A stretch of 64,000 bases of DNA from Candidatus Lloydbacteria bacterium RIFCSPHIGHO2_02_FULL_50_18 (lineage in GTDB: Bacteria > Patescibacteriota > Minisyncoccia > Phycocordibacterales > UBA6899), in NCBI GenBank assembly GCA_001821395.1, contig MHLM01000015.1, positions 2,293-66,292 of the forward strand. Reading direction: 5' to 3'. How positions within the stretch are numbered: position 1 is the first letter of the stretch; each line of letters starts with the position of its first letter. Position numbers and translations under genes: made by a program. Under the pieces are notes generated by a model, which was given only the letters and a program-made list of their open reading frames with translations, was not told the DNA's origin and ran no database searches. Below are positions 15,178-23,270 of the stretch, one piece after another.

Positions 15178-17535
15178 CTATTTTACCCCCGCGTACAAAC
15201 TTCTCTGGAAATCAAAAAAGGTCGAGCGAATAGCGTCTACATCCCCGAGAATATCCACCGCATCAGCAATAGCGTGATATTTCAAATTGAGCAATTGCGG
15301 GAGCTTTTCTTCGTCGAGCTCCTCGACTCCGCGCTCGACATACTTAGCAAGTACGAACTCAAGAAAATCTTTTTGATCATCATTCAATCCGCCCAAGATT
15401 GCACTCTTGGCACCCAAAACACGATCGACGCGCGAGATTGGCTGTACGCAAAACGAGACATAAGCGAGCACGTCAAACAAATCACTGTTTTCCGCATCGA
15501 TCATCTTTTGAAGTATCTCAAGCTCATCCTTCCCATACCCCGCCTCAGCAAGCTTATCGAGAAATACTTTTCTCGTACTTGGATTGGCCCAAATTTCACG
15601 AAGCTCAACTTCATTCTTATAAAATGAAGGGAGTGCACCGAACATGTTGTTCATAAATTCCTCTACCGAGATCGGCTTCCCATCTGCGCTCCAAAATGAG
15701 GTGGAGATCATATGCTTTATTTCTCGATCCTTTCCATCCCGCAACTTTATTTTAAGCTTTTGTATGGGTGGAGGCACATCGCACACGCACGGCTTCTGTC
15801 CGCACACAACGCATGGCGCGGTCGGAGGCTTCACACACACACAGGGCGTCATACCACATGCTGCACAGGGTTGTTTCGGCGCTGGCTCCACTATCGGCTC
15901 ATCAATGGGCTCTCCGTCCCACTCAGGGTCAGCGAAGTGATGATACGCATCCACAAAGTCATAGATAGTGAAATACTCCTTTCCGTCAAAGAGCCGAGTT
16001 CCTCGTCCAACGATCTGCTTAAACTCAATCATGGAGTTTACGGGGCGCATCAGTACAATATTGCGAATGTTTCGCGCATCGACTCCCGTCGAGAGCTTTT
16101 GTGAGGTAGTGAGGATGGTGGGGATACTTTTTTCATTATCCTGGAATTCTTTCAAATACTGATCCCCGCGAGCACCGTCATTGGCCGTCACGCGCACACA
16201 ATAATTTGGCTCAGTGCTCTCTTTCATCTGATTCACCAAGTCACGCACTGCGAGTGCATGGTCTTGTGTTGCGCAAAAGATAATAGTCTTTTCGTTTTGA
16301 TTTATCTCCTCAAGTATGACGCGTACACGCTTCGCCTCACGCTCCTTGATCTCGATGATCTTATTAAAGTCCGCCTCTTCGTAGATTTTTCCTTCCTCCA
16401 CTTCCCCCTCGATGATCTGGTCGTCCGAAGTGTACACATAATCATCCATCGTCGTCTTGATACGCTTCACCTTAAATGGCGTCAGAAATCCGTCATTCAC
16501 TCCGGTTTTGAGCGAGTAAGTGTATACGGGCTTTCCGAAATAGTTGTAGGTGTCCACGTTGTCTTGCCTGCGTGGCGTCGCGGTGAGCCCAAGGTGTACC
16601 GCAGGCGCGAAGTGCTCGAGGATCGCTCGCCAATTGCTCTCATCGTTCGCACCCCCACGATGACACTCGTCAATAATGATCAGATCAAAAAAGTCCGAGG
16701 GATAGTCCCCGAAATATGGCGAACCATTTTGCCCGCTCATAAAAGTCTGGAATATGGTGAAAAAGATGCTCCCATTTGTGGGCACAGCACCCTTCTTCCG
16801 TATATCAAGTGGATTAATGCGCACAAGTGCATCCTCATGGAAAGCCGAGAATGAATTAAATGCCTGATTTGCTAAAATATTTCTGTCGGCAAGAAAGAGG
16901 ATTCTCGGGCGCCTCCCTCCATCTCGCGCCAAGTTCCATCGTGACTGAAAAAGCTTCCACGCGATCTGAAATGCAATAAAAGTTTTCCCCGTGCCTGTCG
17001 CAAGCGTTAGAAGCGCCCGTTGCTTGTTTTCCGCAATTGCATCGAGTGTATTGTTCACGGCAATTTCTTGATAGTATCGCGCACTCTTTGTGCCGTTCAT
17101 ATCCTCAAACGGGACAGCGGCAAATTTCTCCTTCCATGCATTTTGGTCAGAATAGACCATGTTCCATAATTCATCAGGAGTCGGGAAACGTTCCACATAT
17201 TTCTCCGCACCCGTCTCCATGCATATCTCGTATATTTCTTTGCCGTTAGTGGCATAGGTATATTTGATCTCAAGTTTCTCAGCATAAGCCTTCGCCTGTG
17301 CGACGCCCTCCGTCGCCGAGAGTCCCTCATGCTTTGCCTCCACAACCCCGATCTTCATGTTTTTATAAACCAAAATATAGTCAGCGATCTCAGGCTTCCC
17401 GCGTACTCCACCAGTCATAATGCGTCCGAGGGTTATGCGAAACTCCCGCAGGACCTTCGATCCCTCGATCTCGCCCCATCCGGCTTCTTTCAGCTTCGGA
17501 TCAACATATTCCGCTCGTGTTTCAGATTCATTCAT
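15178..17535 (-). CDS. hsdR: Type I restriction enzyme R subunit
   Basis: N-terminal PD-(D/E)XK (ADYILVY...VVEAKH), helicase motifs LATGTGKT / DECH, typical HsdR layout. The C-terminal third carries an unusual Cys-rich tandem motif. Confidence 0.9.
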   Translation of the reverse strand: MNESETRAEYVDPKLKEAGWGEIEGSKVLREFRITLGRIMTGGVRGKPEIADYILVYKNMKIGVVEAKHEGLSATEGVAQAKAYAEKLEIKYTYATNGKEIYEICMETGAEKYVERFPTPDELWNMVYSDQNAWKEKFAAVPFEDMNGTKSARYYQEIAVNNTLDAIAENKQRALLTLATGTGKTFIAFQIAWKLFQSRWNLARDGGRRPRILFLADRNILANQAFNSFSAFHEDALVRINPLDIRKKGAVPTNGSIFFTIFQTFMSGQNGSPYFGDYPSDFFDLIIIDECHRGGANDESNWRAILEHFAPAVHLGLTATPRRQDNVDTYNYFGKPVYTYSLKTGVNDGFLTPFKVKRIKTTMDDYVYTSDDQIIEGEVEEGKIYEEADFNKIIEIKEREAKRVRVILEEINQNEKTIIFCATQDHALAVRDLVNQMKESTEPNYCVRVTANDGARGDQYLKEFQDNEKSIPTILTTSQKLSTGVDARNIRNIVLMRPVNSMIEFKQIVGRGTRLFDGKEYFTIYDFVDAYHHFADPEWDGEPIDEPIVEPAPKQPCAACGMTPCVCVKPPTAPCVVCGQKPCVCDVPPPIQKLKIKLRDGKDREIKHMISTSFWSADGKPISVEEFMNNMFGALPSFYKNEVELREIWANPSTRKVFLDKLAEAGYGKDELEILQKMIDAENSDLFDVLAYVSFCVQPISRVDRVLGAKSAILGGLNDDQKDFLEFVLAKYVERGVEELDEEKLPQLLNLKYHAIADAVDILGDVDAIRSTFFDFQRSLYAGVK

Positions 17536-18185
17536 GATGATTGTTTCGCACCATACTGCTTAACTGCCACACCGTCATATCTTTCTTTGAGTCCCTCATA
17601 AATAAGACTCACGAGGGGCTTATAATCATCGGCATGATCGATTTGCGCAAGCGCCTGACGGTAGCGATTCTTATTTTCCTTTTCTACTTTTATTGATATA
17701 CCAATTAACCCGTAGCGCTCCAAAATCAAATTCGCAGCAAGACGAGCAGTGCGTCCGTTCCCATCCCGAAATGGATGAACGCAGGTGATAGAATAATGCA
17801 ACCATGCCGCCAGATGAATAACTCGCTCAACCGTCTGATGGACTTTCGCCATGCTTACATTTTTTCCTCTTATTATTCCCTCTGCTTTATCTAGCGCTTG
17901 TAATTTTTTCTGCAACTCGACCTCCCTTTCGTTCATGAGGTCATTTATTTTTGAGTGATGAGGGGGGACGTGACTTGAGTCTGTTATTTCAAGATTTTCC
18001 GTTCTATACTTTCCCGCAATATCAGGCCAGGCATCTTTGAATATTTCCCGATGAATTTCCTTGATCGTTTCAATCGAAATACCCTTGTGTGATCGTGCAA
18101 ATTTTCTTACAAAACGAGAAGCGCGGATCACTCCAATCGCTTCTCGTTTTTGTAACTCTTCTTCCGAGCGCGGACACTCTACCAT
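17532..18185 (-). CDS. Fic/Doc family protein (AMPylator-type toxin domain)
   Basis: Canonical Fic motif HPFRDGNGRTARL. Confidence 0.85.
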   Translation of the reverse strand: MVECPRSEEELQKREAIGVIRASRFVRKFARSHKGISIETIKEIHREIFKDAWPDIAGKYRTENLEITDSSHVPPHHSKINDLMNEREVELQKKLQALDKAEGIIRGKNVSMAKVHQTVERVIHLAAWLHYSITCVHPFRDGNGRTARLAANLILERYGLIGISIKVEKENKNRYRQALAQIDHADDYKPLVSLIYEGLKERYDGVAVKQYGAKQSS

Positions 18186-18193
18186 GGCAATGC

Positions 18194-18388
18194 TTACGCT
18201 ACTTTTAGCGCAAGTTTTTCAAATTCCCCGCGATCAAGCTTGCTTCCCTCAAGCGCACTCGAATAATAGGCATGCTCAATATCCCAACTTTTTTCAAGGG
18301 CGGATTTTTGTTTTGGCGTAAGCTGAGAAATCTGTCGTTCTGCAACTTTCTTACTCGCCATTAACTGTACGAGCCGTAGATTCTTCAT
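18194..18388 (-). CDS. FicA-like small protein carrying the Fic inhibitory motif (SxxxEG); separate antitoxin-like gene or frameshifted N-terminus of Fic
   Basis: 64 aa; ...IEHAYYSSALEGSKLD contains S-x-x-x-E-G. Its stop lies 8 nt upstream of the Fic ATG, in a different frame. Confidence 0.5.
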   Translation of the reverse strand: MKNLRLVQLMASKKVAERQISQLTPKQKSALEKSWDIEHAYYSSALEGSKLDRGEFEKLALKVA

Positions 18389-18480: not shown

Positions 18481-19686
18481 TCACAACTCCCCAGCAAAGG
18501 CCTTTTTCAACACTGATTTTTTAAGCTCCTCAATATCAGCAAGTTTTTGCCCGTAGATTCCTTCAAGTTTTTTTGTCTGCTCCGCAAGCGCATCGAGCTT
18601 TTTGACGATGGTTTTTTGCTCTGAGACAGATGGAAATGGAAACCGCTCATGCTCAAACGTTGCCATGTTGATATTGGCCTGCGCACTTCCTTTTCCTTTT
18701 GCCTGGAGTACTGCCTTAAATGATTGCAAAAGATACTCGACAAAATTAGTATCTGCAATTTTGGGATTAGCAACAAGTCCGATCACGCTATCAGGAAAAC
18801 ACGCATCGAAATTCAGAATTCCAGTTTCTGCGATATTCGCCGCAATCGTAATGCAGATAGTTCCTCTCGGCCACAGCTTGCTCTGCGCCAGTCCCGCCTC
18901 GCTATACGACTGTGAGTACTCCACAATAAAGTGTCCAGAATTTCGAATATCTCCCGTCTGAATAAAGGGGTACTTTCCGCCATAGAGTTTTTTGTCGTTT
19001 CTTGGGCGATGCTTAGATTTTCCTCTGCCGAATTGCAGGGAGACTTCTTCTAGCGTCTTTTTCTCCCATTTCGAATTTTCAAAAACCCCCTGCAAATACG
19101 ATTCAAAAAGTTCGCGGGAATTCTTCAAATTCTTCTCCGCATTCTCCTTCGCCTTCTCCACTCCCTCAAAAACCTCATCAAGAATTTTTACGATGCGCTT
19201 TTGCTCGATCGCAGAAGGAAAAGGTATCTCAACCTCTTTTAATTTTGTTCCAGAAAGTTCCTTAAAAGTTGTACCACTACCCAAACTATTCAAAAGTTCA
19301 ACTGAATCTTTCAAAAAATAATAGAGAAATTTTGTATCAAGATTTTTATTCGGTATTAATCCCTTACACCCCTGATTTGTTGAAATTTCTTTTGTGTTTA
19401 TCGCCAAGTGACCAATCGGAGCACGGGTAGACAAAATAATCGAGTTGGGTGGAATGATTTTTGCTGACGACCTTTCTAATCCAGCCTTTGAAATTTTTCG
19501 TTCTGTTTCCTCAACGTATATTTTCCTAAGTCTCCCCATGTCTTTGGGTGTGATCCACAAAATATTTCCATCCCAGTACCTCAAAACGCCCGTTTTAGGA
19601 GTTCCTCCGTTTACAATCTCGCAAACCTCCCCAAGTTTTTTTATTTGCCAGTTAGTTTTCATAGTGAGAAATAATTTGCTTTCCAT
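18481..19686 (-). CDS. hsdS: Type I restriction-modification specificity subunit
   Basis: Two target-recognition-domain halves with conserved HsdS N-terminal and central repeats (EVCEIVNGGTPKTG...; ...VSEQKTIVKKLDAL). Confidence 0.85.
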   Translation of the reverse strand: MESKLFLTMKTNWQIKKLGEVCEIVNGGTPKTGVLRYWDGNILWITPKDMGRLRKIYVEETERKISKAGLERSSAKIIPPNSIILSTRAPIGHLAINTKEISTNQGCKGLIPNKNLDTKFLYYFLKDSVELLNSLGSGTTFKELSGTKLKEVEIPFPSAIEQKRIVKILDEVFEGVEKAKENAEKNLKNSRELFESYLQGVFENSKWEKKTLEEVSLQFGRGKSKHRPRNDKKLYGGKYPFIQTGDIRNSGHFIVEYSQSYSEAGLAQSKLWPRGTICITIAANIAETGILNFDACFPDSVIGLVANPKIADTNFVEYLLQSFKAVLQAKGKGSAQANINMATFEHERFPFPSVSEQKTIVKKLDALAEQTKKLEGIYGQKLADIEELKKSVLKKAFAGEL

Positions 19687-20821
19687 TCTGTATCAATTGG
19701 TCGTAAGTGAGAATGTCTATATCATGTAAACTAGAGTTTAAAAAATGAAGAGCTTTTTTCTCATCCTCAGTAAAGGCATCTGACCGACCGAGAATGAGCT
19801 GGACTCTTGGTCTTAGTATTCGAACAGAGTGCTGAATCGACAAAGTTTTTTTATAGTCTTCGATTCTTTGTAAATAAATTAAGGACTGACCAATTGCTTC
19901 CGAGAAAGGGCTCGTAGGGAAATGGCAACGATGCGAAGTATCATATCTAAACAGCGGGCTGCCGACACTTGGCCTCTTAACTTCAATGAGGCTGATAAAT
20001 CCATCGGGCGTTTCGAGTACGATGTCTGCCTCAGAGTTATCTTCTCCAATCTTCCTGAATGTGTGCTTTTTGTAGTACTCGACTCCAAAAACCCACAAAT
20101 TAGCCCCAATCCATTTATGAAACACACCCTCTGGTTGATTTGCGTGATATTTCTTTAGTGCACCATTTCCTTTTATTGCCTCAAGGAAATTCACGTCAGA
20201 TTCGATGCTTAAAAGGTATTCTAAATTAGCAATAGCCTCTTTGTGTTCTTTTTGTTTTATTGCTGCGCTCAAACTCTCGACGTCAAGGGCATCAATATTC
20301 TCAATAAACTTCTGAAATAAACTATTTCTTTCAGCGGTGCCCAACTTATTAAAAAGCTGAAACAGCTGATCAGATGTTAATGCTTGCGACCCATGCAATA
20401 ACTGTGAAAATGCATTCTTTCGCTCCACAAGTTCACTTACGTTTTGATCAGTAAATTTTAAATTTTCCTTAGAAGTTAAGTCCAGTAAATCTAATGATTC
20501 AAGAAACTTAATAAAGCGAGTAAGTGCTCCTCCATGAAAACTGAAAGATTGATTATGTGGTATGCCAGTATCTTTTGAAAATCTTTGAATGCGCAATGAA
20601 AACCCAGTGGTGTCTTGATTATAAATAGCGGTTATTTCTTGCACTGCGCTTTCGCGTATGACCTCAAAAACTTTCTTTTCTTTTTGATCGTTATAAAAAT
20701 CTTTAAAATCTTTTAGCTCAAATACTTTTGAAATGTATCTGATGTTCCCATCTTTCCCAATCGCCCTACTCACATAAGTAAGTGCGGGGTCTTTTTTGAT
20801 CGCATACTCTCCATTGCTCAT
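19652..20821 (-). CDS. Shedu-like (DUF4263-type) PD-(D/E)XK nuclease embedded between hsdM and hsdS
   Basis: C-terminal nuclease core LWVFGVEYYKK...EADIVLETPDGFISLIEVKRPS (D...E-V-K). Size and layout resemble SduA. It overlaps hsdM by 4 nt and hsdS by ~11-35 nt, so it is operonic. Confidence 0.55.
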   Translation of the reverse strand: MSNGEYAIKKDPALTYVSRAIGKDGNIRYISKVFELKDFKDFYNDQKEKKVFEVIRESAVQEITAIYNQDTTGFSLRIQRFSKDTGIPHNQSFSFHGGALTRFIKFLESLDLLDLTSKENLKFTDQNVSELVERKNAFSQLLHGSQALTSDQLFQLFNKLGTAERNSLFQKFIENIDALDVESLSAAIKQKEHKEAIANLEYLLSIESDVNFLEAIKGNGALKKYHANQPEGVFHKWIGANLWVFGVEYYKKHTFRKIGEDNSEADIVLETPDGFISLIEVKRPSVGSPLFRYDTSHRCHFPTSPFSEAIGQSLIYLQRIEDYKKTLSIQHSVRILRPRVQLILGRSDAFTEDEKKALHFLNSSLHDIDILTYDQLIQNGKQIISHYEN

Positions 20822-22263
20822 AACAAGTTTTTCAATATCTGAGCACTTTCTTTATCCAATTTCTCCATTTCCTTCAAAATCTCCTTCGGGGTGCGCAGCG
20901 CTACCTCACCTCCCTTGTTTGGATTCTTTGCCGATAGGTCGAAGGTCTTCTGGTCGACGTCTTTTATGTCTATGCTCCATGAATTTTCAGAATCACCATT
21001 CGTCTCTTGGAGTTTTATAAAATCAGCAAGGTCGGCTTCGTTGAGTGCATTGGTCTTGCCGAGGTTGCGGTCGAGGTTGAGCTGATAGAACCAGACTTTT
21101 TTCGTTGGTGCACCCTTCTCAAAAAAGAGTATGACCGTTTTCACCCCTGCACCAGTGAATGTGCCACCTGGCAGGTCGAGCACGGTGTGGAGATTGCAAC
21201 TTTCAAGCAGCATTTTGCGAAGCGACACCGAAGCATTGTCGGTGTTGGAAAGAAAGGTGTTTTTGATGACCACACCCGCTTTTCCTCCGGCTTTCAGCAT
21301 TTTGATGAAATGCTGGAGAAAAAGAAATGCCGTCTCTCCCGTTTTGATAGGAAAATTCTGCTGTACCTCAGGTCTCTCTGAGCCTCCAAATGGCGGATTC
21401 GCAAGCACGATCTCATAGCGGTCTTTCTCCTGAATATCCGCAAGGTTTTCGGCAAGTGTGTTGGTGTGAATGATGTTCGGAGCCTCGATGCCATGGAGAA
21501 TCATGTTCATGATGCCAATGATGTAGGCGAGCGATTTCTTCTCCTTGCCGTAAAATGTCTTCTTCTGAAGTGTCTGCATGTCGCTTGTCGAAAGCTTCTT
21601 GCTCTCCTTCAAGTATTCAAACGCTTCCACGAGGAATCCCGCCGAGCCCACAGCCCCATCATAGACTTTATCGCCGATTTTTGGAGCGACCACCTTCACG
21701 ATGGTCTTGATGAGTGGGCGCGGGGTGTAGTACTCGCCACCATTGCGCCCTGCGTTGCCCATGTTCTTTATCTTGCCCTCGTAAAGGTGTGAAAGCTCGT
21801 GCTTTTCGCTCTGCGAGCGAAAGTGCATTCCATCCACGAGGTTCAGCACCTCGCGGAGGTTGTACCCACTTTGTATCTTGTTTTTGATCTCGCTAAAAAT
21901 TTCTCCGATCTTGTACTCGATCGTGTCGGGACTCACTGCATCCGCCTTGAATTTCTTGAAATACGGAAAAAGCTCGCGCTCGACGAAATCCTTAAGGTCA
22001 TCACCCGACAGTGCTTTGCTGTGGTCAATCTTCTTATCTCCTGTCTTGGGCACTGCCCACACTTCCCAGCGAAACTTCGGCGAGATGATATATTCGTATT
22101 TTTTACCTGCGAGCTTCGCCTCGGTCTCCTTATCCTTTTCAAGATCATCAAGATACTTGAGAAAGAGCACCCACGAAGTCTGCTCGATATAATCCAGCTC
22201 ACTCGACGCCCCCGCATCCTTACGCAATATGTCATCAATATTTTTAAAGTGTTGTTCAAACAT
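20818..22263 (-). CDS. hsdM: Type I restriction-modification DNA methyltransferase subunit
   Basis: N6-adenine MTase motifs including LANPPFGGSE and an HsdM N-terminal domain. The ORF-track N-extension to 22314 overlaps the tRNA. The real start is MFEQHF at 22263, 7 nt after the tRNA 3' end. Confidence 0.9.
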   Translation of the reverse strand: MFEQHFKNIDDILRKDAGASSELDYIEQTSWVLFLKYLDDLEKDKETEAKLAGKKYEYIISPKFRWEVWAVPKTGDKKIDHSKALSGDDLKDFVERELFPYFKKFKADAVSPDTIEYKIGEIFSEIKNKIQSGYNLREVLNLVDGMHFRSQSEKHELSHLYEGKIKNMGNAGRNGGEYYTPRPLIKTIVKVVAPKIGDKVYDGAVGSAGFLVEAFEYLKESKKLSTSDMQTLQKKTFYGKEKKSLAYIIGIMNMILHGIEAPNIIHTNTLAENLADIQEKDRYEIVLANPPFGGSERPEVQQNFPIKTGETAFLFLQHFIKMLKAGGKAGVVIKNTFLSNTDNASVSLRKMLLESCNLHTVLDLPGGTFTGAGVKTVILFFEKGAPTKKVWFYQLNLDRNLGKTNALNEADLADFIKLQETNGDSENSWSIDIKDVDQKTFDLSAKNPNKGGEVALRTPKEILKEMEKLDKESAQILKNLL

Positions 22264-22269
22264 TTTTTT

Positions 22270-22345
22270 TGGTGGACCATGGGAGAATCGAACTCCCCAC
22301 CTCTTCCATGCCATGGAAGCGCTCTACCAAATGAGCTAATGGCCC
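22270..22345 (-). tRNA. tRNA-Ala (anticodon GGC), G3:U70, CCA encoded
   Basis: Manual fold: acceptor GGGCCAT/ATGGTCC with G3:U70, anticodon stem CTTCC/GGAAG with loop ATGGCAT, T-arm GGGAG-TTCGATT-CTCCC, then ACCA. Confidence 0.85.
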
Positions 22346-22640
22346 GTAGAAAGATGATAACTTACAAATGGGTTTTCTTCAATGAAGACGGGGGGGGTCG
22401 AGTCGTGAAGGGAGTCGAAGCTTATTCGAGATCGTCATCGCAAGCTTTGTGGAGATGGCAAGTCGTGTAGTGCGTTGCCGGAGGGCAACACTGCTACGAA
22501 AAAGCCAACCGGGTGTCTGGCTTTGCGGACTTGGCTTACAGCTTCAGTACGCCTTTTCGATTTATTCAGAGCGAAGCTCTTCATAAATAACGAAAAGCCC
22601 TTCGACTCCCCGCCGCAAGTGAAGCAGTTCACTTGCTTGA

Positions 22641-22694
22641 GTCCACAGGTACAAAAAAATTACGATTTCTCGTAATTTTTTTGTACCTGTGGAC
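22641..22694 (-). terminator. Perfect 54-nt palindrome / intrinsic terminator overlapping the tRNA-Ala(CGC) 3' end
   Basis: GTCCACAGGTAC-AAAAAAA-TTACGA-ttct-TCGTAA-TTTTTTT-GTACCTGTGGAC. The 3' arm includes the first nucleotides of the tRNA 3' terminus. Confidence 0.6.
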
Positions 22695-22760
22695 TCACGG
22701 GGAGTCGAACCCCGGACTCGGCAATGCGAATGCCGTGTAATACCACTTTACTATGAGCCC
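22690..22760 (-). tRNA. tRNA-Ala (anticodon CGC), G3:U70, no CCA encoded
   Basis: Manual fold: acceptor GGGCTCA/TGAGTCC (G3:U70), anticodon stem CGGCA/TGCCG with loop TTCGCAT, T-arm CGGGG-TTCGACT-CCCCG, discriminator A. Confidence 0.8.
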
Positions 22761-22805
22761 AGTAGGCGAATAGTAGCGAATTTATCCGTGGGGTGCAAAT
22801 TGTTG

Positions 22806-22849
22806 GACCGTACAGGAATCTCGGCTACCGCCGCGGGTGATATTCAATT
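22806..22849. repeat. tRNA-Ala(TGC) 3'-end fragment (tggaccgtacagga) fused to the conserved 34-nt element; attR-like scar
   Basis: 14 nt identical to the acceptor/T-stem of tRNA-Ala(TGC) at 23197-23210. It is followed by aatctcggctaccgccgcgggtgatattcaat, identical to 2247-2280. Confidence 0.6.
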
Positions 22850-23141
22850 TCGTACAGGAATTTCGACGCCTACTGCGTCAGTACCCAGTTTCAATTTGAA
22901 TACAGGACTCTTCCTCTACGAGGACAGTATACCTTTCACCACAGAGAGTACTTCTTGTTTTCTAGCTCACTTCGTTCGTAAGTAAACAATGTCGTCCGTT
23001 TACTGAGGATAAGAATCCTGCCGTACAGGAATCTCTCCCCTTACAGGGGCAGTGTCCAGTTTCGATTTACTCAAAATAGGAATTTCTCGTAAATATCGAA
23101 ACAGGCTTCGAGTCCTTACGCAAGCAATGCAGATTGCTTGC

Positions 23142-23206
23142 TACGGTCCACACCATATAAGAAAAAACTGCCTTACGGCAGTTTTTACTTTATGGTGTGG
23201 ACCGTA
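23142..23206 (-). terminator. Extended hairpin / terminator overlapping the tRNA-Ala(TGC) 3' end
   Basis: ctacggtccacaccata-aagaaaaaa-CTGCC-ttac-GGCAG-ttttta-ctttatggtgtggaccgta: GC stem flanked by A/T tracts. The outer arms are an inverted copy of the tRNA acceptor 3' strand. Confidence 0.55.
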
Positions 23207-23270
23207 CAGGACTCGAACCTGCCACCCCCGCATTGCAAATGCGGTGCTCTACCAGATGAGCTAACGGCCC
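23198..23270 (-). tRNA. tRNA-Ala (anticodon TGC), G3:U70
   Basis: Manual fold: acceptor GGGCCGT/ACGGTCC (G3:U70), anticodon stem CCGCA/TGCGG with loop TTTGCAA, T-arm GCAGG-TTCGAGT-CCTGT. Confidence 0.85.

What the first reader, a model, noticed from the sequence alone, without database searches (positions are those of the whole stretch)
19652..20821. Shedu-like (DUF4263-type) PD-(D/E)XK nuclease gene translationally coupled inside hsdM-hsdS
The ORF ends ...EADIVLETPDGFISLIEVKRPS (D...E-x-K) in a ~120 aa C-terminal nuclease-like domain. The N-terminal ~250 aa are helical with no recognisable domain, which is the SduA layout. It overlaps hsdM (ATGA) and hsdS, so it is expressed with the RM system. 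Type I RM loci are known to host embedded defense genes; a Shedu-type effector here would couple an RM barrier with a second nuclease.
Basis: partly seen in the sequence, partly recalled or inferred. Interest (0 to 1): 0.55.

Follow-up and report, generated by a model that had tools for sequence, protein, structure and literature searches.

The report
Shedu nuclease gene inside Type I RM operon

Summary
The ORF at 19652-20821 (-) is real: 389 aa, with its ATG overlapping the hsdM stop (ATGA) and its stop lying 11 nt inside hsdS. It is a Shedu nuclease (SduA). Pfam SduA_C scores 52.9 bits against a cutoff of 27, PADLOC SduA models reach 1e-33, and the nine best PDB fold matches are all SduA structures. 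All five PD-(D/E)xK motif residues (E231, D266, E280, K282, Q312) are invariant and align with the B. cereus catalytic residues. That domain occurs only in Shedu proteins and has no solved structural relative.

Most close homologues (about 15 of 17 with context) stand alone. Three other loci with a closely related Type I system carry a Shedu gene at the same hsdM-hsdS junction. Among 67 close hsdM relatives with a readable junction, 22 carry other cargo there (AbiJ, SIR2-HerA, YhcG, RhuM, Bro-N and others). sduA is therefore low-GC cargo in a recombination hot spot.

Gu et al. already counted 602 Shedu genes within RM systems, Type I included. Verdict: correct finding, new member of a known kind, low-to-moderate interest.

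The parts
19652..20821 (-). sduA: Shedu nuclease gene, 389 aa (NCBI: hypothetical protein A2845_04285, Candidatus Lloydbacteria)
   Evidence: ORF; PF14082 at 52.9 bits; PADLOC SduA at 1.2e-33; Foldseek top hits are SduA structures; 100% match to P0001
20447..20821 (-). sduA N-terminal domain (residues 1-125): beta-rich putative sensor domain found only in Shedu proteins, with no Pfam family and no solved structural relative
20138..20446 (-). sduA helical linker (residues ~126-228)
   Evidence: Helices 125-143, 150-158, 162-178, 181-206 and 212-218 in the model. Profile positions 145-386 align with B. cereus SduA residues 139-378, which include its linker.
19652..20137 (-). sduA PD-(D/E)xK nuclease domain (residues 229-389; DUF4263/SduA_C)
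   Evidence: Pfam stretch 229-377; alignment to 8ti9
19886..20131 (-). Codons of the catalytic motifs: E231 (20129-20131), D266 (20024-20026), E280 (19982-19984), K282 (19976-19978), Q312 (19886-19888)
   Evidence: All are invariant in alignment A1. In HMM alignments they align with B. cereus E204, D249, E264, K266 and Q295. Residue roles come from Gu et al.. The D266, E280 and K282 codons were read directly from the sequence; the E231 and Q312 coordinates were computed from residue numbers, not read.
20818..22263 (-). hsdM (Type I methyltransferase). The ORF extends to 22314 but runs into tRNA-Ala. Homologues align from residue 18, so the likely start is the ATG at 22263.
   Evidence: PF02384 at 2.3e-63 and HsdM_N; tblastn matches from residue 18; tRNA; sequence
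18481..19662 (-). hsdS (specificity subunit, two target-recognition domains). The longest ORF starts at 19686; the homologue-supported start MKTNWQIKKLGEV is at 19662.
   Evidence: PF01420 at 5.3e-60, two stretches; N-terminus compared with seven other hsdS genes
18194..18388 (-). Small ORF (64 aa) carrying the SSALEG match to the Fic inhibitory motif [S/T]xxxE[G/N]; putative Fic antitoxin
   Evidence: Translation; motif read by eye; no Pfam hit; a promoter-like site with an extended -10 lies at 18423-18396
17532..18185 (-). Fic-domain protein (217 aa) with an intact HPFRDGNGRTAR active-site motif; second cargo, between hsdS and hsdR; its stop overlaps the hsdR start (ATGA)
   Evidence: PF02661 at 1.8e-20; PADLOC PDC-S04 at 1.3e-23 and SoFic at 1.6e-21
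15178..17535 (-). hsdR (Type I restriction subunit, 785 aa)
   Evidence: ResIII, SWI2_SNF2, Helicase_C, EcoEI_R_C and HSDR_N domains
22270..22345 (-). tRNA-Ala(GGC). Its CCA end lies 7 nt upstream of the hsdM start codon, so it marks the upstream boundary of the RM locus.
   Evidence: ARAGORN; sequence

Best explanation
The gene encodes a catalytically intact Type 1 Shedu nuclease (SduA). It has an N-terminal beta-rich sensor domain, a helical linker and a C-terminal DUF4263 PD-(D/E)xK nuclease. It sits as horizontally acquired, low-GC cargo at the hsdM-hsdS junction of an otherwise complete Type I RM operon: tRNA-Ala, hsdM, sduA, hsdS, a putative Fic antitoxin-toxin pair, hsdR. The host is a Candidatus Lloydbacteria (CPR) genome.

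Shown here: family membership, fold, conserved active site, gene overlaps, and the fact that this junction is a cargo hot spot in this Type I lineage.

Inferred: (1) sduA is transcribed with hsdM and hsdS and translated by termination-reinitiation at the ATGA overlap. (2) By analogy with the B. cereus and E. coli enzymes, the protein forms a tetramer through its nuclease domains. The N-terminal domain would hold the nuclease off until it meets a phage-specific nucleic-acid feature (a free DNA end or single-stranded end), after which the enzyme nicks or cuts the invading DNA. (3) It acts independently of the RM enzyme, as a second layer that catches phages escaping restriction. Embedding mainly links its inheritance and expression to the RM system.
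For: Family and fold:
- PF14082 scores 52.9 bits against a cutoff of 27. Nineteen PADLOC SduA models match.
- Foldseek ranks 1-9 are all SduA structures. Profile matches to 8ti8 reach 8.9e-34 and to 8ps4 7.3e-14.

Active site:
- E231, D266, E280, K282 and Q312 are invariant in 33 sequences.
- They align with the B. cereus motif I-IV residues. Mutating the equivalent E. coli residues abolishes defence.

Autonomy:
- About 15 of 17 family members with known context are single genes in unrelated neighbourhoods, namely TA islands, a relaxase/TrwB element, or next to Abi_C or DpnI.

Cargo slot:
- Of 80 hsdM relatives at 76-86% identity, 45 have a direct hsdM/hsdS overlap and 22 carry one to three unrelated genes there.
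- Those genes include AbiJ, Dcm+GHKL, SIR2-HerA, Bro-N, RhuM, YhcG, AAA_15/21, KilA-N, Uma2, zeta toxin and an NTase_sub_bind + nucleotidyltransferase (Polbeta) pair. Most have overlapping junctions.

Foreign composition:
- sduA GC is 37.4% (GC3 35%), against hsdM 47.7% (GC3 60%) and hsdR 48.2%. The same dip occurs in L016 and L104.

Coupling:
- ATGA at the hsdM/sduA junction and an 11-nt overlap at sduA/hsdS. I saw no Shine-Dalgarno-like sequence upstream by eye, and the scan found no convincing internal terminator.

Published context:
- 602 of 5,499 Shedu genes lie within RM systems, including Type I. Type I RM systems frequently hold embedded defence genes.
Against: - No experiment shows activity, oligomeric state or phage defence for this protein or any close relative.
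- The full-length model is moderate in quality (pLDDT 77.7, pTM 0.53).
- A Shedu gene recurs at the same junction in four related RM loci, and hsdS scars flank stand-alone copies. This leaves room for a closer functional tie to the RM system than 'independent cargo'.
- Co-transcription was not measured, and the promoter and terminator scans were at chance level.
Confidence: 0.85

Rival explanations
1. SduA is functionally wired to the Type I RM enzyme rather than being independent cargo. One version is a PrrC-like guard: the nuclease is held inactive by the RM complex and released when a phage anti-restriction protein disables it. Another version is a partner that acts on the DNA ends HsdR produces when it cuts.
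For: - A Shedu gene occupies the same hsdM-hsdS junction in four loci whose hsdM genes are 78-84% identical: the window, L016, L019 and L104.
- Two unrelated N-terminal domains are involved, but the sduA/hsdS overlap is nearly identical: TATGAAAA(A/C)TAACTGGCAAA(C/T)AAAAAAACT.
- Stand-alone copies L105, L101 and L002 keep hsdS 5' remnants. This implies long residence of the clade in this slot.
- There is precedent in PrrC/EcoprrI and in TgvAB, which protects better within the full cluster.
- E. coli SduA senses free DNA ends.
Against: - About 15 of 17 family members are stand-alone, so the protein does not need an RM partner.
- The same slot carries about a dozen unrelated cargo types with equally tight junctions.
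- The conserved TAA that ends sduA is simply an out-of-frame stop within the conserved hsdS start. It also terminates an unrelated GHKL-ATPase cargo in L024.
- None of the 80 nearest hsdM relatives from metagenomes has sduA.
Confidence: 0.1
2. The protein is a PD-(D/E)xK nuclease with a role outside defence, for example DNA repair or recombination, or an addiction or stabilisation function for the RM cassette. It would share only the Shedu fold.
For: PD-(D/E)xK domains are versatile. The closest non-Shedu structural relative of the Shedu core is the mismatch endonuclease EndoMS (Gu et al.). The N-terminal domain is uncharacterised. CPR genomes are poorly studied.
Against: - It exceeds the curated SduA_C threshold and matches the defence-specific PADLOC models best.
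- Its neighbours in other genomes are TA modules, Abi_C, DpnI-type RM and mobile-element genes, which is defence-island context.
- The N-terminal domain is found only fused to SduA_C.
Confidence: 0.03
3. The gene is an inactive or decaying remnant carried passively in the operon.
For: Related embedded copies show damage. The L019 sduA stops at 275 aa. The L104 hsdM contains an in-frame stop. L106/L107 sduA appears frameshifted near its 3' end.
Against: The window copy is full length (389 aa, 100% coverage against homologues). All invariant catalytic and structural residues are intact. hsdM, hsdS and hsdR are also intact.
Confidence: 0.02

Closest known systems
Bacillus cereus B4264 Shedu (SduA; PDB 8TI8/8TI9; 'Type 1A' of Gu et al.)
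   Same: Same three-part layout: an N-terminal beta-rich domain of about 120 aa, a helical linker, and a DUF4263 PD-(D/E)xK nuclease. The linker and nuclease align at E = 8.9e-34 with a family profile. Motif I-IV residues correspond one to one.
Escherichia coli SduA (PDB 8PS4/8PS5; Loeff et al.)
   Same: It is the best Foldseek hit (E = 3.5e-8, probability 1.0). The nuclease domains align (7.3e-14). It has the same sensor-linker-nuclease logic. Its catalytic Glu/Asp/Glu/Lys residues are essential for defence.
Shedu genes encoded within RM systems (Gu et al., 602 of 5,499 genes, Types I-IV)
   Same: The same phenomenon: a Shedu gene located within an RM gene cluster.
   Different: Their survey text lists proteobacteria, actinobacteria, firmicutes, bacteroidota, cyanobacteria and a few archaea, but does not mention CPR/Patescibacteria. 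Their preprint text, as far as I read it, does not describe the exact hsdM-sduA-hsdS position with overlapping codons, or the hsdS scars. I did not read their supplementary figure S8E.
Defence genes embedded in Type I RM operons: PrrC in EcoprrI, TgvAB in V. cholerae VPI-2, and the 'guilt-by-embedding' candidates of Payne et al.
   Same: A second, mechanistically distinct defence gene sits within an hsdMSR cluster and is co-oriented with it, so inheritance and expression are linked.
   Different: Payne et al. describe PrrC as kept inactive by its RM partner. No such dependence is indicated here, because most homologues stand alone. According to that paper, a related gene in Campylobacter jejuni lies between hsdR and hsdS, similar to the position of tgvAB; I did not read how PrrC is positioned. 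Here sduA lies between hsdM and hsdS.

Membership tests
Shedu (SduA) | C-terminal DUF4263/SduA_C domain above the curated Pfam threshold | tested here: met
   PF14082 at E = 6.3e-14, 52.9 bits against a cutoff of 27, residues 229-377 covering profile positions 2-159 of 159. PADLOC SduA models reach 1.2e-33.
Shedu (SduA) | Complete PD-(D/E)xK active site (motif I Glu, motif II Asp, motif III Glu-x-Lys, motif IV Gln) | tested here: met
   E231, D266, E280, K282 and Q312 are invariant in A1. They align to B. cereus E204, D249, E264, K266 and Q295. The motif definitions come from Gu et al..
Shedu (SduA) | Fold of the nuclease core superposes on solved SduA structures | tested here: met
   Foldseek PDB ranks 1-9 are 8ps4, 8ps5, 8ti8 and 8ti9 at probability 1.00. 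TM-score normalised to the target is 0.61-0.64 for the isolated nuclease-domain chains. The next hits are FokI at E of about 1e-2.
Shedu (SduA) | Works as a single-gene system (no obligatory partner gene) | tested here: met
   Full-length homologues lie in unrelated neighbourhoods without conserved partners.
Shedu (SduA) | Homotetramer through the nuclease domains; N-terminal domain restrains the nuclease | not testable with these tools
   Only monomer models could be made. The property is known for the E. coli and B. cereus enzymes.
Shedu (SduA) | Confers anti-phage defence dependent on the catalytic residues | not testable with these tools
   This requires an experiment.
Shedu Type 1A (sPC4/Whirly-type SduA_N sensor, B. 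cereus type) | N-terminal domain belongs to SduA_N (PF21407) / Whirly fold | tested here: inconclusive
E. coli-type Shedu (DNA-end clamp sensor) | N-terminal domain homologous to the EcSduA clamp domain | tested here: not met
Type I restriction-modification system | HsdM (N6-adenine methyltransferase with HsdM_N), HsdS with two target-recognition domains, and HsdR with helicase motor and nuclease N-terminus, co-oriented in one locus | tested here: met
   Pfam finds N6_Mtase at 2.3e-63 plus HsdM_N; Methylase_S at 5.3e-60 in two stretches; and ResIII, Helicase_C, EcoEI_R_C and HSDR_N. All genes lie on the minus strand with overlapping or short junctions.
PrrC-like RM-guarded effector | Effector activity depends on, and is masked by, the surrounding RM complex | not tested
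   There is only indirect evidence against it: most homologues lack any RM neighbour.

The most novel reading that the evidence does not exclude
This Shedu clade is natively tied to one mobile Type I RM lineage rather than being a casual passenger. Shedu genes with interchangeable sensor domains have occupied the hsdM-hsdS junction long enough that stand-alone copies still carry hsdS fragments. The pairing might be functional: SduA could act on, or be triggered by, the DNA ends HsdR generates, or it could guard the RM complex against anti-restriction proteins.
Probability: 0.12. Interest if true: 0.6.

Novelty: new member of a known kind. Interest (0 to 1): 0.28.

Why it matters
- It gives a confident functional annotation to a protein deposited as 'hypothetical' in a CPR (Lloydbacteria) genome.
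- It adds Shedu to the defence repertoire of a group whose immunity is thought to rely mainly on restriction-modification; that characterisation is from my own background knowledge, not checked here.
- It shows a concrete, sequence-level picture of how cargo is held at the hsdM-hsdS junction. The cargo's stop and start codons overlap the flanking genes, the cargo is low in GC, and hsdS fragments travel with escaped copies.
- The hot spot is a practical hunting ground for new defence genes. About one third of close relatives of this hsdM carry something there, including several ORFs with no Pfam match.
- The N-terminal domain is a Shedu sensor family with no structural relative, so its trigger is an open question.
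- None of this changes current understanding. Both Shedu-in-RM and embedding in Type I RM systems are published.

Tried and rejected
1. NCBIfam scan of SduA: no family matched.
2. Single-sequence phmmer against PDB: no hit. Only profiles reached the SduA structures.
3. I looked for an integrated-island signature, meaning a direct repeat of the tRNA-Ala 3' end near the hsdR end. Only short chance-level repeats turned up, and I saw no integrase-like gene within the RM locus by eye.
4. Promoter and terminator scan of the locus: counts were at or below the shuffle expectation, so it is uninformative.
5. I tested whether sduA embedding is common among the nearest hsdM relatives: 0 of 80 metagenome loci. 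It is not a fixed feature of the lineage.
7. I considered whether the near-identical sduA/hsdS junction proves common descent of the embedded sduA genes. I rejected this as proof, because the TAA stop is an out-of-frame triplet within the conserved hsdS start, and it also ends an unrelated GHKL-ATPase cargo in L024.
8. I searched the fetched loci for homologues of the small ORF upstream of Fic: none found.
Full report
**Observation**

The minus strand carries a 389-aa ORF at 19652..20821, starting at the first ATG after the upstream stop. The plus-strand bases 20818-20821 read TCAT. On the coding strand, therefore, the sduA ATG and the hsdM TGA overlap as ATGA. The 3' end runs into hsdS. The overlap is 35 nt with the longest hsdS ORF. 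It is 11 nt (ATGAAAACTAA) with the start MKTNWQIKKLGEV, which matches the N-termini of other hsdS genes.

The string EADIVLETPDGFISLIEVKRPS is at residues 264-285, not at the end of the ORF. The source is a Candidatus Lloydbacteria (RIFCSPHIGHO2) genome, where the protein is deposited as 'hypothetical protein A2845_04285'.

**What the protein is**

- Pfam assigns SduA_C/DUF4263 (PF14082) at E = 6.3e-14, 52.9 bits against a cutoff of 27, covering the whole profile over residues 229-377.
- Nineteen PADLOC SduA models match, the best at 1.2e-33. One of them (PDLC00394) also covers the N-terminal residues 4-150.
- NCBIfam has no model for it, and a single-sequence search of PDB finds nothing.
- An alignment of 33 homologues (A1) has invariant E231, D266, E280, K282 and Q312.
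- HMM alignments to the B. cereus Shedu chains place these residues opposite the residues that Gu et al. define as PD-(D/E)xK motifs I-IV: E204, D249, E264/K266 and Q295.
- A wider profile (A3) hits 8ti8 at 8.9e-34 across linker plus nuclease, and E. coli SduA 8ps4 at 7.3e-14.
- The AlphaFold model (pLDDT 77.7) retrieves only SduA structures as Foldseek ranks 1-9 at probability 1.00. FokI comes next, at about 1e-2.
- Plasmid-borne relatives are annotated 'Shedu immune nuclease family protein'.

Membership of the Shedu family is therefore established by sequence, motif and fold.

Residues 10-125 form a beta-rich domain ending in one helix. Residues 125-245 are helical (the linker), and the nuclease core follows. 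A profile of the N-terminal domain searched against 1.84 billion representatives finds 124 proteins, with the domain always at the N-terminus. All 34 long representatives aligned with the window protein carry SduA_C, and none has a Pfam family for this domain.

Three tests failed to link the domain to anything known:
- It shows no profile similarity to the canonical SduA_N of a neighbouring Shedu type (hhalign probability 0.08).
- Foldseek gives no hit better than E = 0.07.

It is thus a Shedu-specific sensor domain of unknown ligand. It is not the E. coli end-binding clamp, and it is not demonstrably the B. cereus Whirly type.

**The locus**

Reading downstream on the minus strand, the order is as follows.
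- tRNA-Ala(GGC), 22345-22270.
- hsdM. Its homologue-supported start at 22263 lies 7 nt after the tRNA's CCA.
- sduA.
- hsdS, with two target-recognition domains.
- A 64-aa ORF with an SSALEG match to the Fic inhibitory motif.
- A Fic protein with an intact HPFRDGNGRTAR motif.
- hsdR, with ResIII, helicase and EcoEI_R_C domains.

All RM genes are intact. sduA has 37.4% GC (GC3 35%), against 47.7% (GC3 60%) for hsdM, 48.2% for hsdR and 48.8% for the window. It is compositionally foreign. No att-like repeat was found, I saw no integrase-like gene within the locus by eye, and the promoter and terminator scans are at chance level.

**Is the RM context a property of the family?**

Mostly not. The 34 full-length homologues (39-75% identity) come from Sedimentisphaerales, Omnitrophica, Desulfobacteraceae, Parcubacteria and Saccharibacteria. 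Where context is available they are mostly single genes in unrelated places:
- beside TA modules (L001, L109);
- on an element with a relaxase and TrwB;
- next to Abi_C (L105);
- next to a DpnI-type RM (L106);
- among housekeeping genes (L002, L004).

There are exceptions. L104 (sduA 70% identical) lies between an hsdM that is 78% identical to the window's and an hsdS, with hsdR following. L016 (Peregrinibacteria) has hsdM 84% and hsdR 75% identical to the window's. L019 (Planctomycetes) has hsdM 78% identical. At the same junction these two carry a different Shedu. It has a canonical SduA_N plus SduA_C, and the L016 copy is 45% identical to the window protein over the last 200 residues. L019's copy is truncated, and L104's hsdM has an in-frame stop.

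**The junction is a cargo hot spot**

I examined the 80 closest metagenomic hsdM relatives (76-86% identity).
- In 45, hsdS overlaps hsdM directly, by 4 nt in 43 and by 11 nt in two.
- In 22, one to three genes are inserted between hsdM and hsdS.
- In 13, the junction cannot be read.
- None of the inserts is a Shedu gene.

The inserts include:
- an AbiJ-like gene;
- Dcm plus a GHKL ATPase;
- SIR2-HerA;
- Bro-N, RhuM and YhcG/DUF1016 nucleases;
- AAA_15/AAA_21 ATPases, and KilA-N;
- Uma2, zeta toxin, and an NTase_sub_bind + nucleotidyltransferase (Polbeta) pair;
- a C39 peptidase and several ORFs with no Pfam match.

Most are joined to hsdM and hsdS by overlapping or abutting codons. The hsdS-hsdR interval is a second such slot. 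It holds Fic here and in L061, L066 and L070, and Bro-N in L016.

**Junction details**

The sduA/hsdS overlap is TATGAAAA(A/C)TAACTGGCAAA(C/T)AAAAAAACT in the window, L016 and L104. The stop codon is an out-of-frame TAA within the conserved hsdS start. It also ends the unrelated GHKL cargo of L024, so by itself it does not prove common descent.

Other features do look like real scars:
- Stand-alone L105 keeps 16 nt of hsdS sequence after its stop.
- L101 keeps a degenerate version of the same 16 nt.
- L104, L105 and L002 have an hsdS 5' fragment (…KKLGEV-KYE*) immediately upstream of sduA.

At least part of this clade has therefore moved out of an hsdS-adjacent position, carrying hsdS fragments with it. 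I read this as exchange by recombination through the conserved hsdM 3' and hsdS 5' sequences. This is an inference.

**How it most likely works**

Shown: an intact Shedu nuclease gene, codon-overlapped with hsdM and hsdS.

Inferred from the characterised enzymes:
- SduA tetramerises through DUF4263.
- The N-terminal domain restrains the nuclease. In E. coli, removing it is toxic.
- Recognition of a phage nucleic-acid feature licenses nicking or cleavage. In E. coli the feature is free dsDNA ends, with a nick at about 13-14 nt from the 5' end. In B. cereus it is proposed to be single-stranded ends.

Which signal the novel N-terminal domain reads is unknown. My best reading (0.85) is that sduA is an autonomous second defence layer whose expression and inheritance are linked to the RM operon. 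The main rival (0.10) is functional wiring to the RM enzyme, either as a guard like PrrC or as a partner acting on HsdR-generated ends. Recurrence at the junction favours that rival. The predominance of stand-alone homologues and the diversity of other cargo argue against it.

**Comparison with what is known, and novelty**

- Gu et al. (bioRxiv 10.1101/2023.08.10.552793) report 602 of 5,499 Shedu genes within RM systems of Types I-IV. They also describe 79 N-terminal domain clusters, many unclassified.
- Payne et al. (bioRxiv 10.1101/2024.01.29.577857) show that Type I RM systems frequently contain embedded defence genes.
- TgvAB in V. cholerae is an experimentally tested case (PMC11411939).

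The finding is therefore a correct identification of a new member of a known kind. The modest additions are the CPR host, the exact hsdM-sduA-hsdS placement with overlapping codons, the description of this junction as a cargo hot spot in one Type I lineage, the hsdS scars on stand-alone copies, and a sensor domain with no structural relative.

**Scores**

Interest 0.28. The most novel reading not excluded is a native, functional Shedu-Type I partnership, at probability 0.12 and interest 0.6 if true.

Noticed in passing
window 17532-18388 (-): A Fic protein (217 aa, intact HPFRDGNGRTAR motif; PADLOC PDC-S04/SoFic) is preceded, 8 nt upstream and in another frame, by a 64-aa ORF. That ORF contains SSALEG, which matches the Fic inhibitory-helix motif [S/T]xxxE[G/N]. 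It looks like a class I Fic toxin-antitoxin pair held as a second cargo between hsdS and hsdR. The Fic stop overlaps the hsdR start (ATGA). Fic genes occupy the same hsdS-hsdR interval in L061, L066 and L070.
   Followed up: partly
window 22270-23270 (-): Three tRNA-Ala genes covering all three anticodons (GGC, CGC, UGC) lie in a row about 400-500 nt apart. The last one (GGC) encodes its CCA end, and the hsdM start codon follows only 7 nt later. The RM operon may therefore be read through from the tRNA promoter-like site at 22382-22354.
   Followed up: partly
L021-L100 (hsdM-hsdS junctions; e.g. L063:11422-12075, L078:2708-3034, L080:2413-2991): In this Type I lineage, 22 of 67 readable hsdM-hsdS junctions hold cargo. 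Several cargo ORFs have no Pfam match at all (217 aa, 108 aa, 192 aa). By the guilt-by-embedding logic they are candidates for new defence genes.
   Followed up: partly
L104:1323-1385, L105:5290-5346, L002:7535-7563; L105:6514-6529, L101:1447-1462: Stand-alone and embedded sduA copies are flanked by fragments of the hsdS 5' end. Upstream there is a remnant encoding ...KKLGEV-KYE*. Downstream, CTGGCAAACAAAAAAA remains even where no hsdS follows. This suggests the cassette moves by recombination through hsdS sequence.
   Followed up: partly
L016:9587-10657, L019:9587-10414, L013-L015: Shedu genes whose nuclease domains are 39-47% identical to the window's carry at least three mutually unrelated N-terminal domains: the window type, the canonical SduA_N in L016/L019, and a third type in L013-L015. 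This illustrates sensor-domain swapping on a conserved core. L019's copy ends prematurely at 275 aa.
   Followed up: partly
L032 and L033, 8001-10052: In two loci the hsdM-like ORF is about 680 aa (2052 nt) and is followed directly by hsdR, with no separate hsdS detected. This may be an hsdM-hsdS fusion or a different subtype.
   Followed up: no
L030:9552-12456 and L024:9612-12405: Two-gene systems are embedded at the same junction. One is SIR2-like plus HerA (DUF87), which I recognise as a known defence pair. The other is a C5 cytosine methylase plus a GHKL (HATPase_c_3) ATPase.
   Followed up: no
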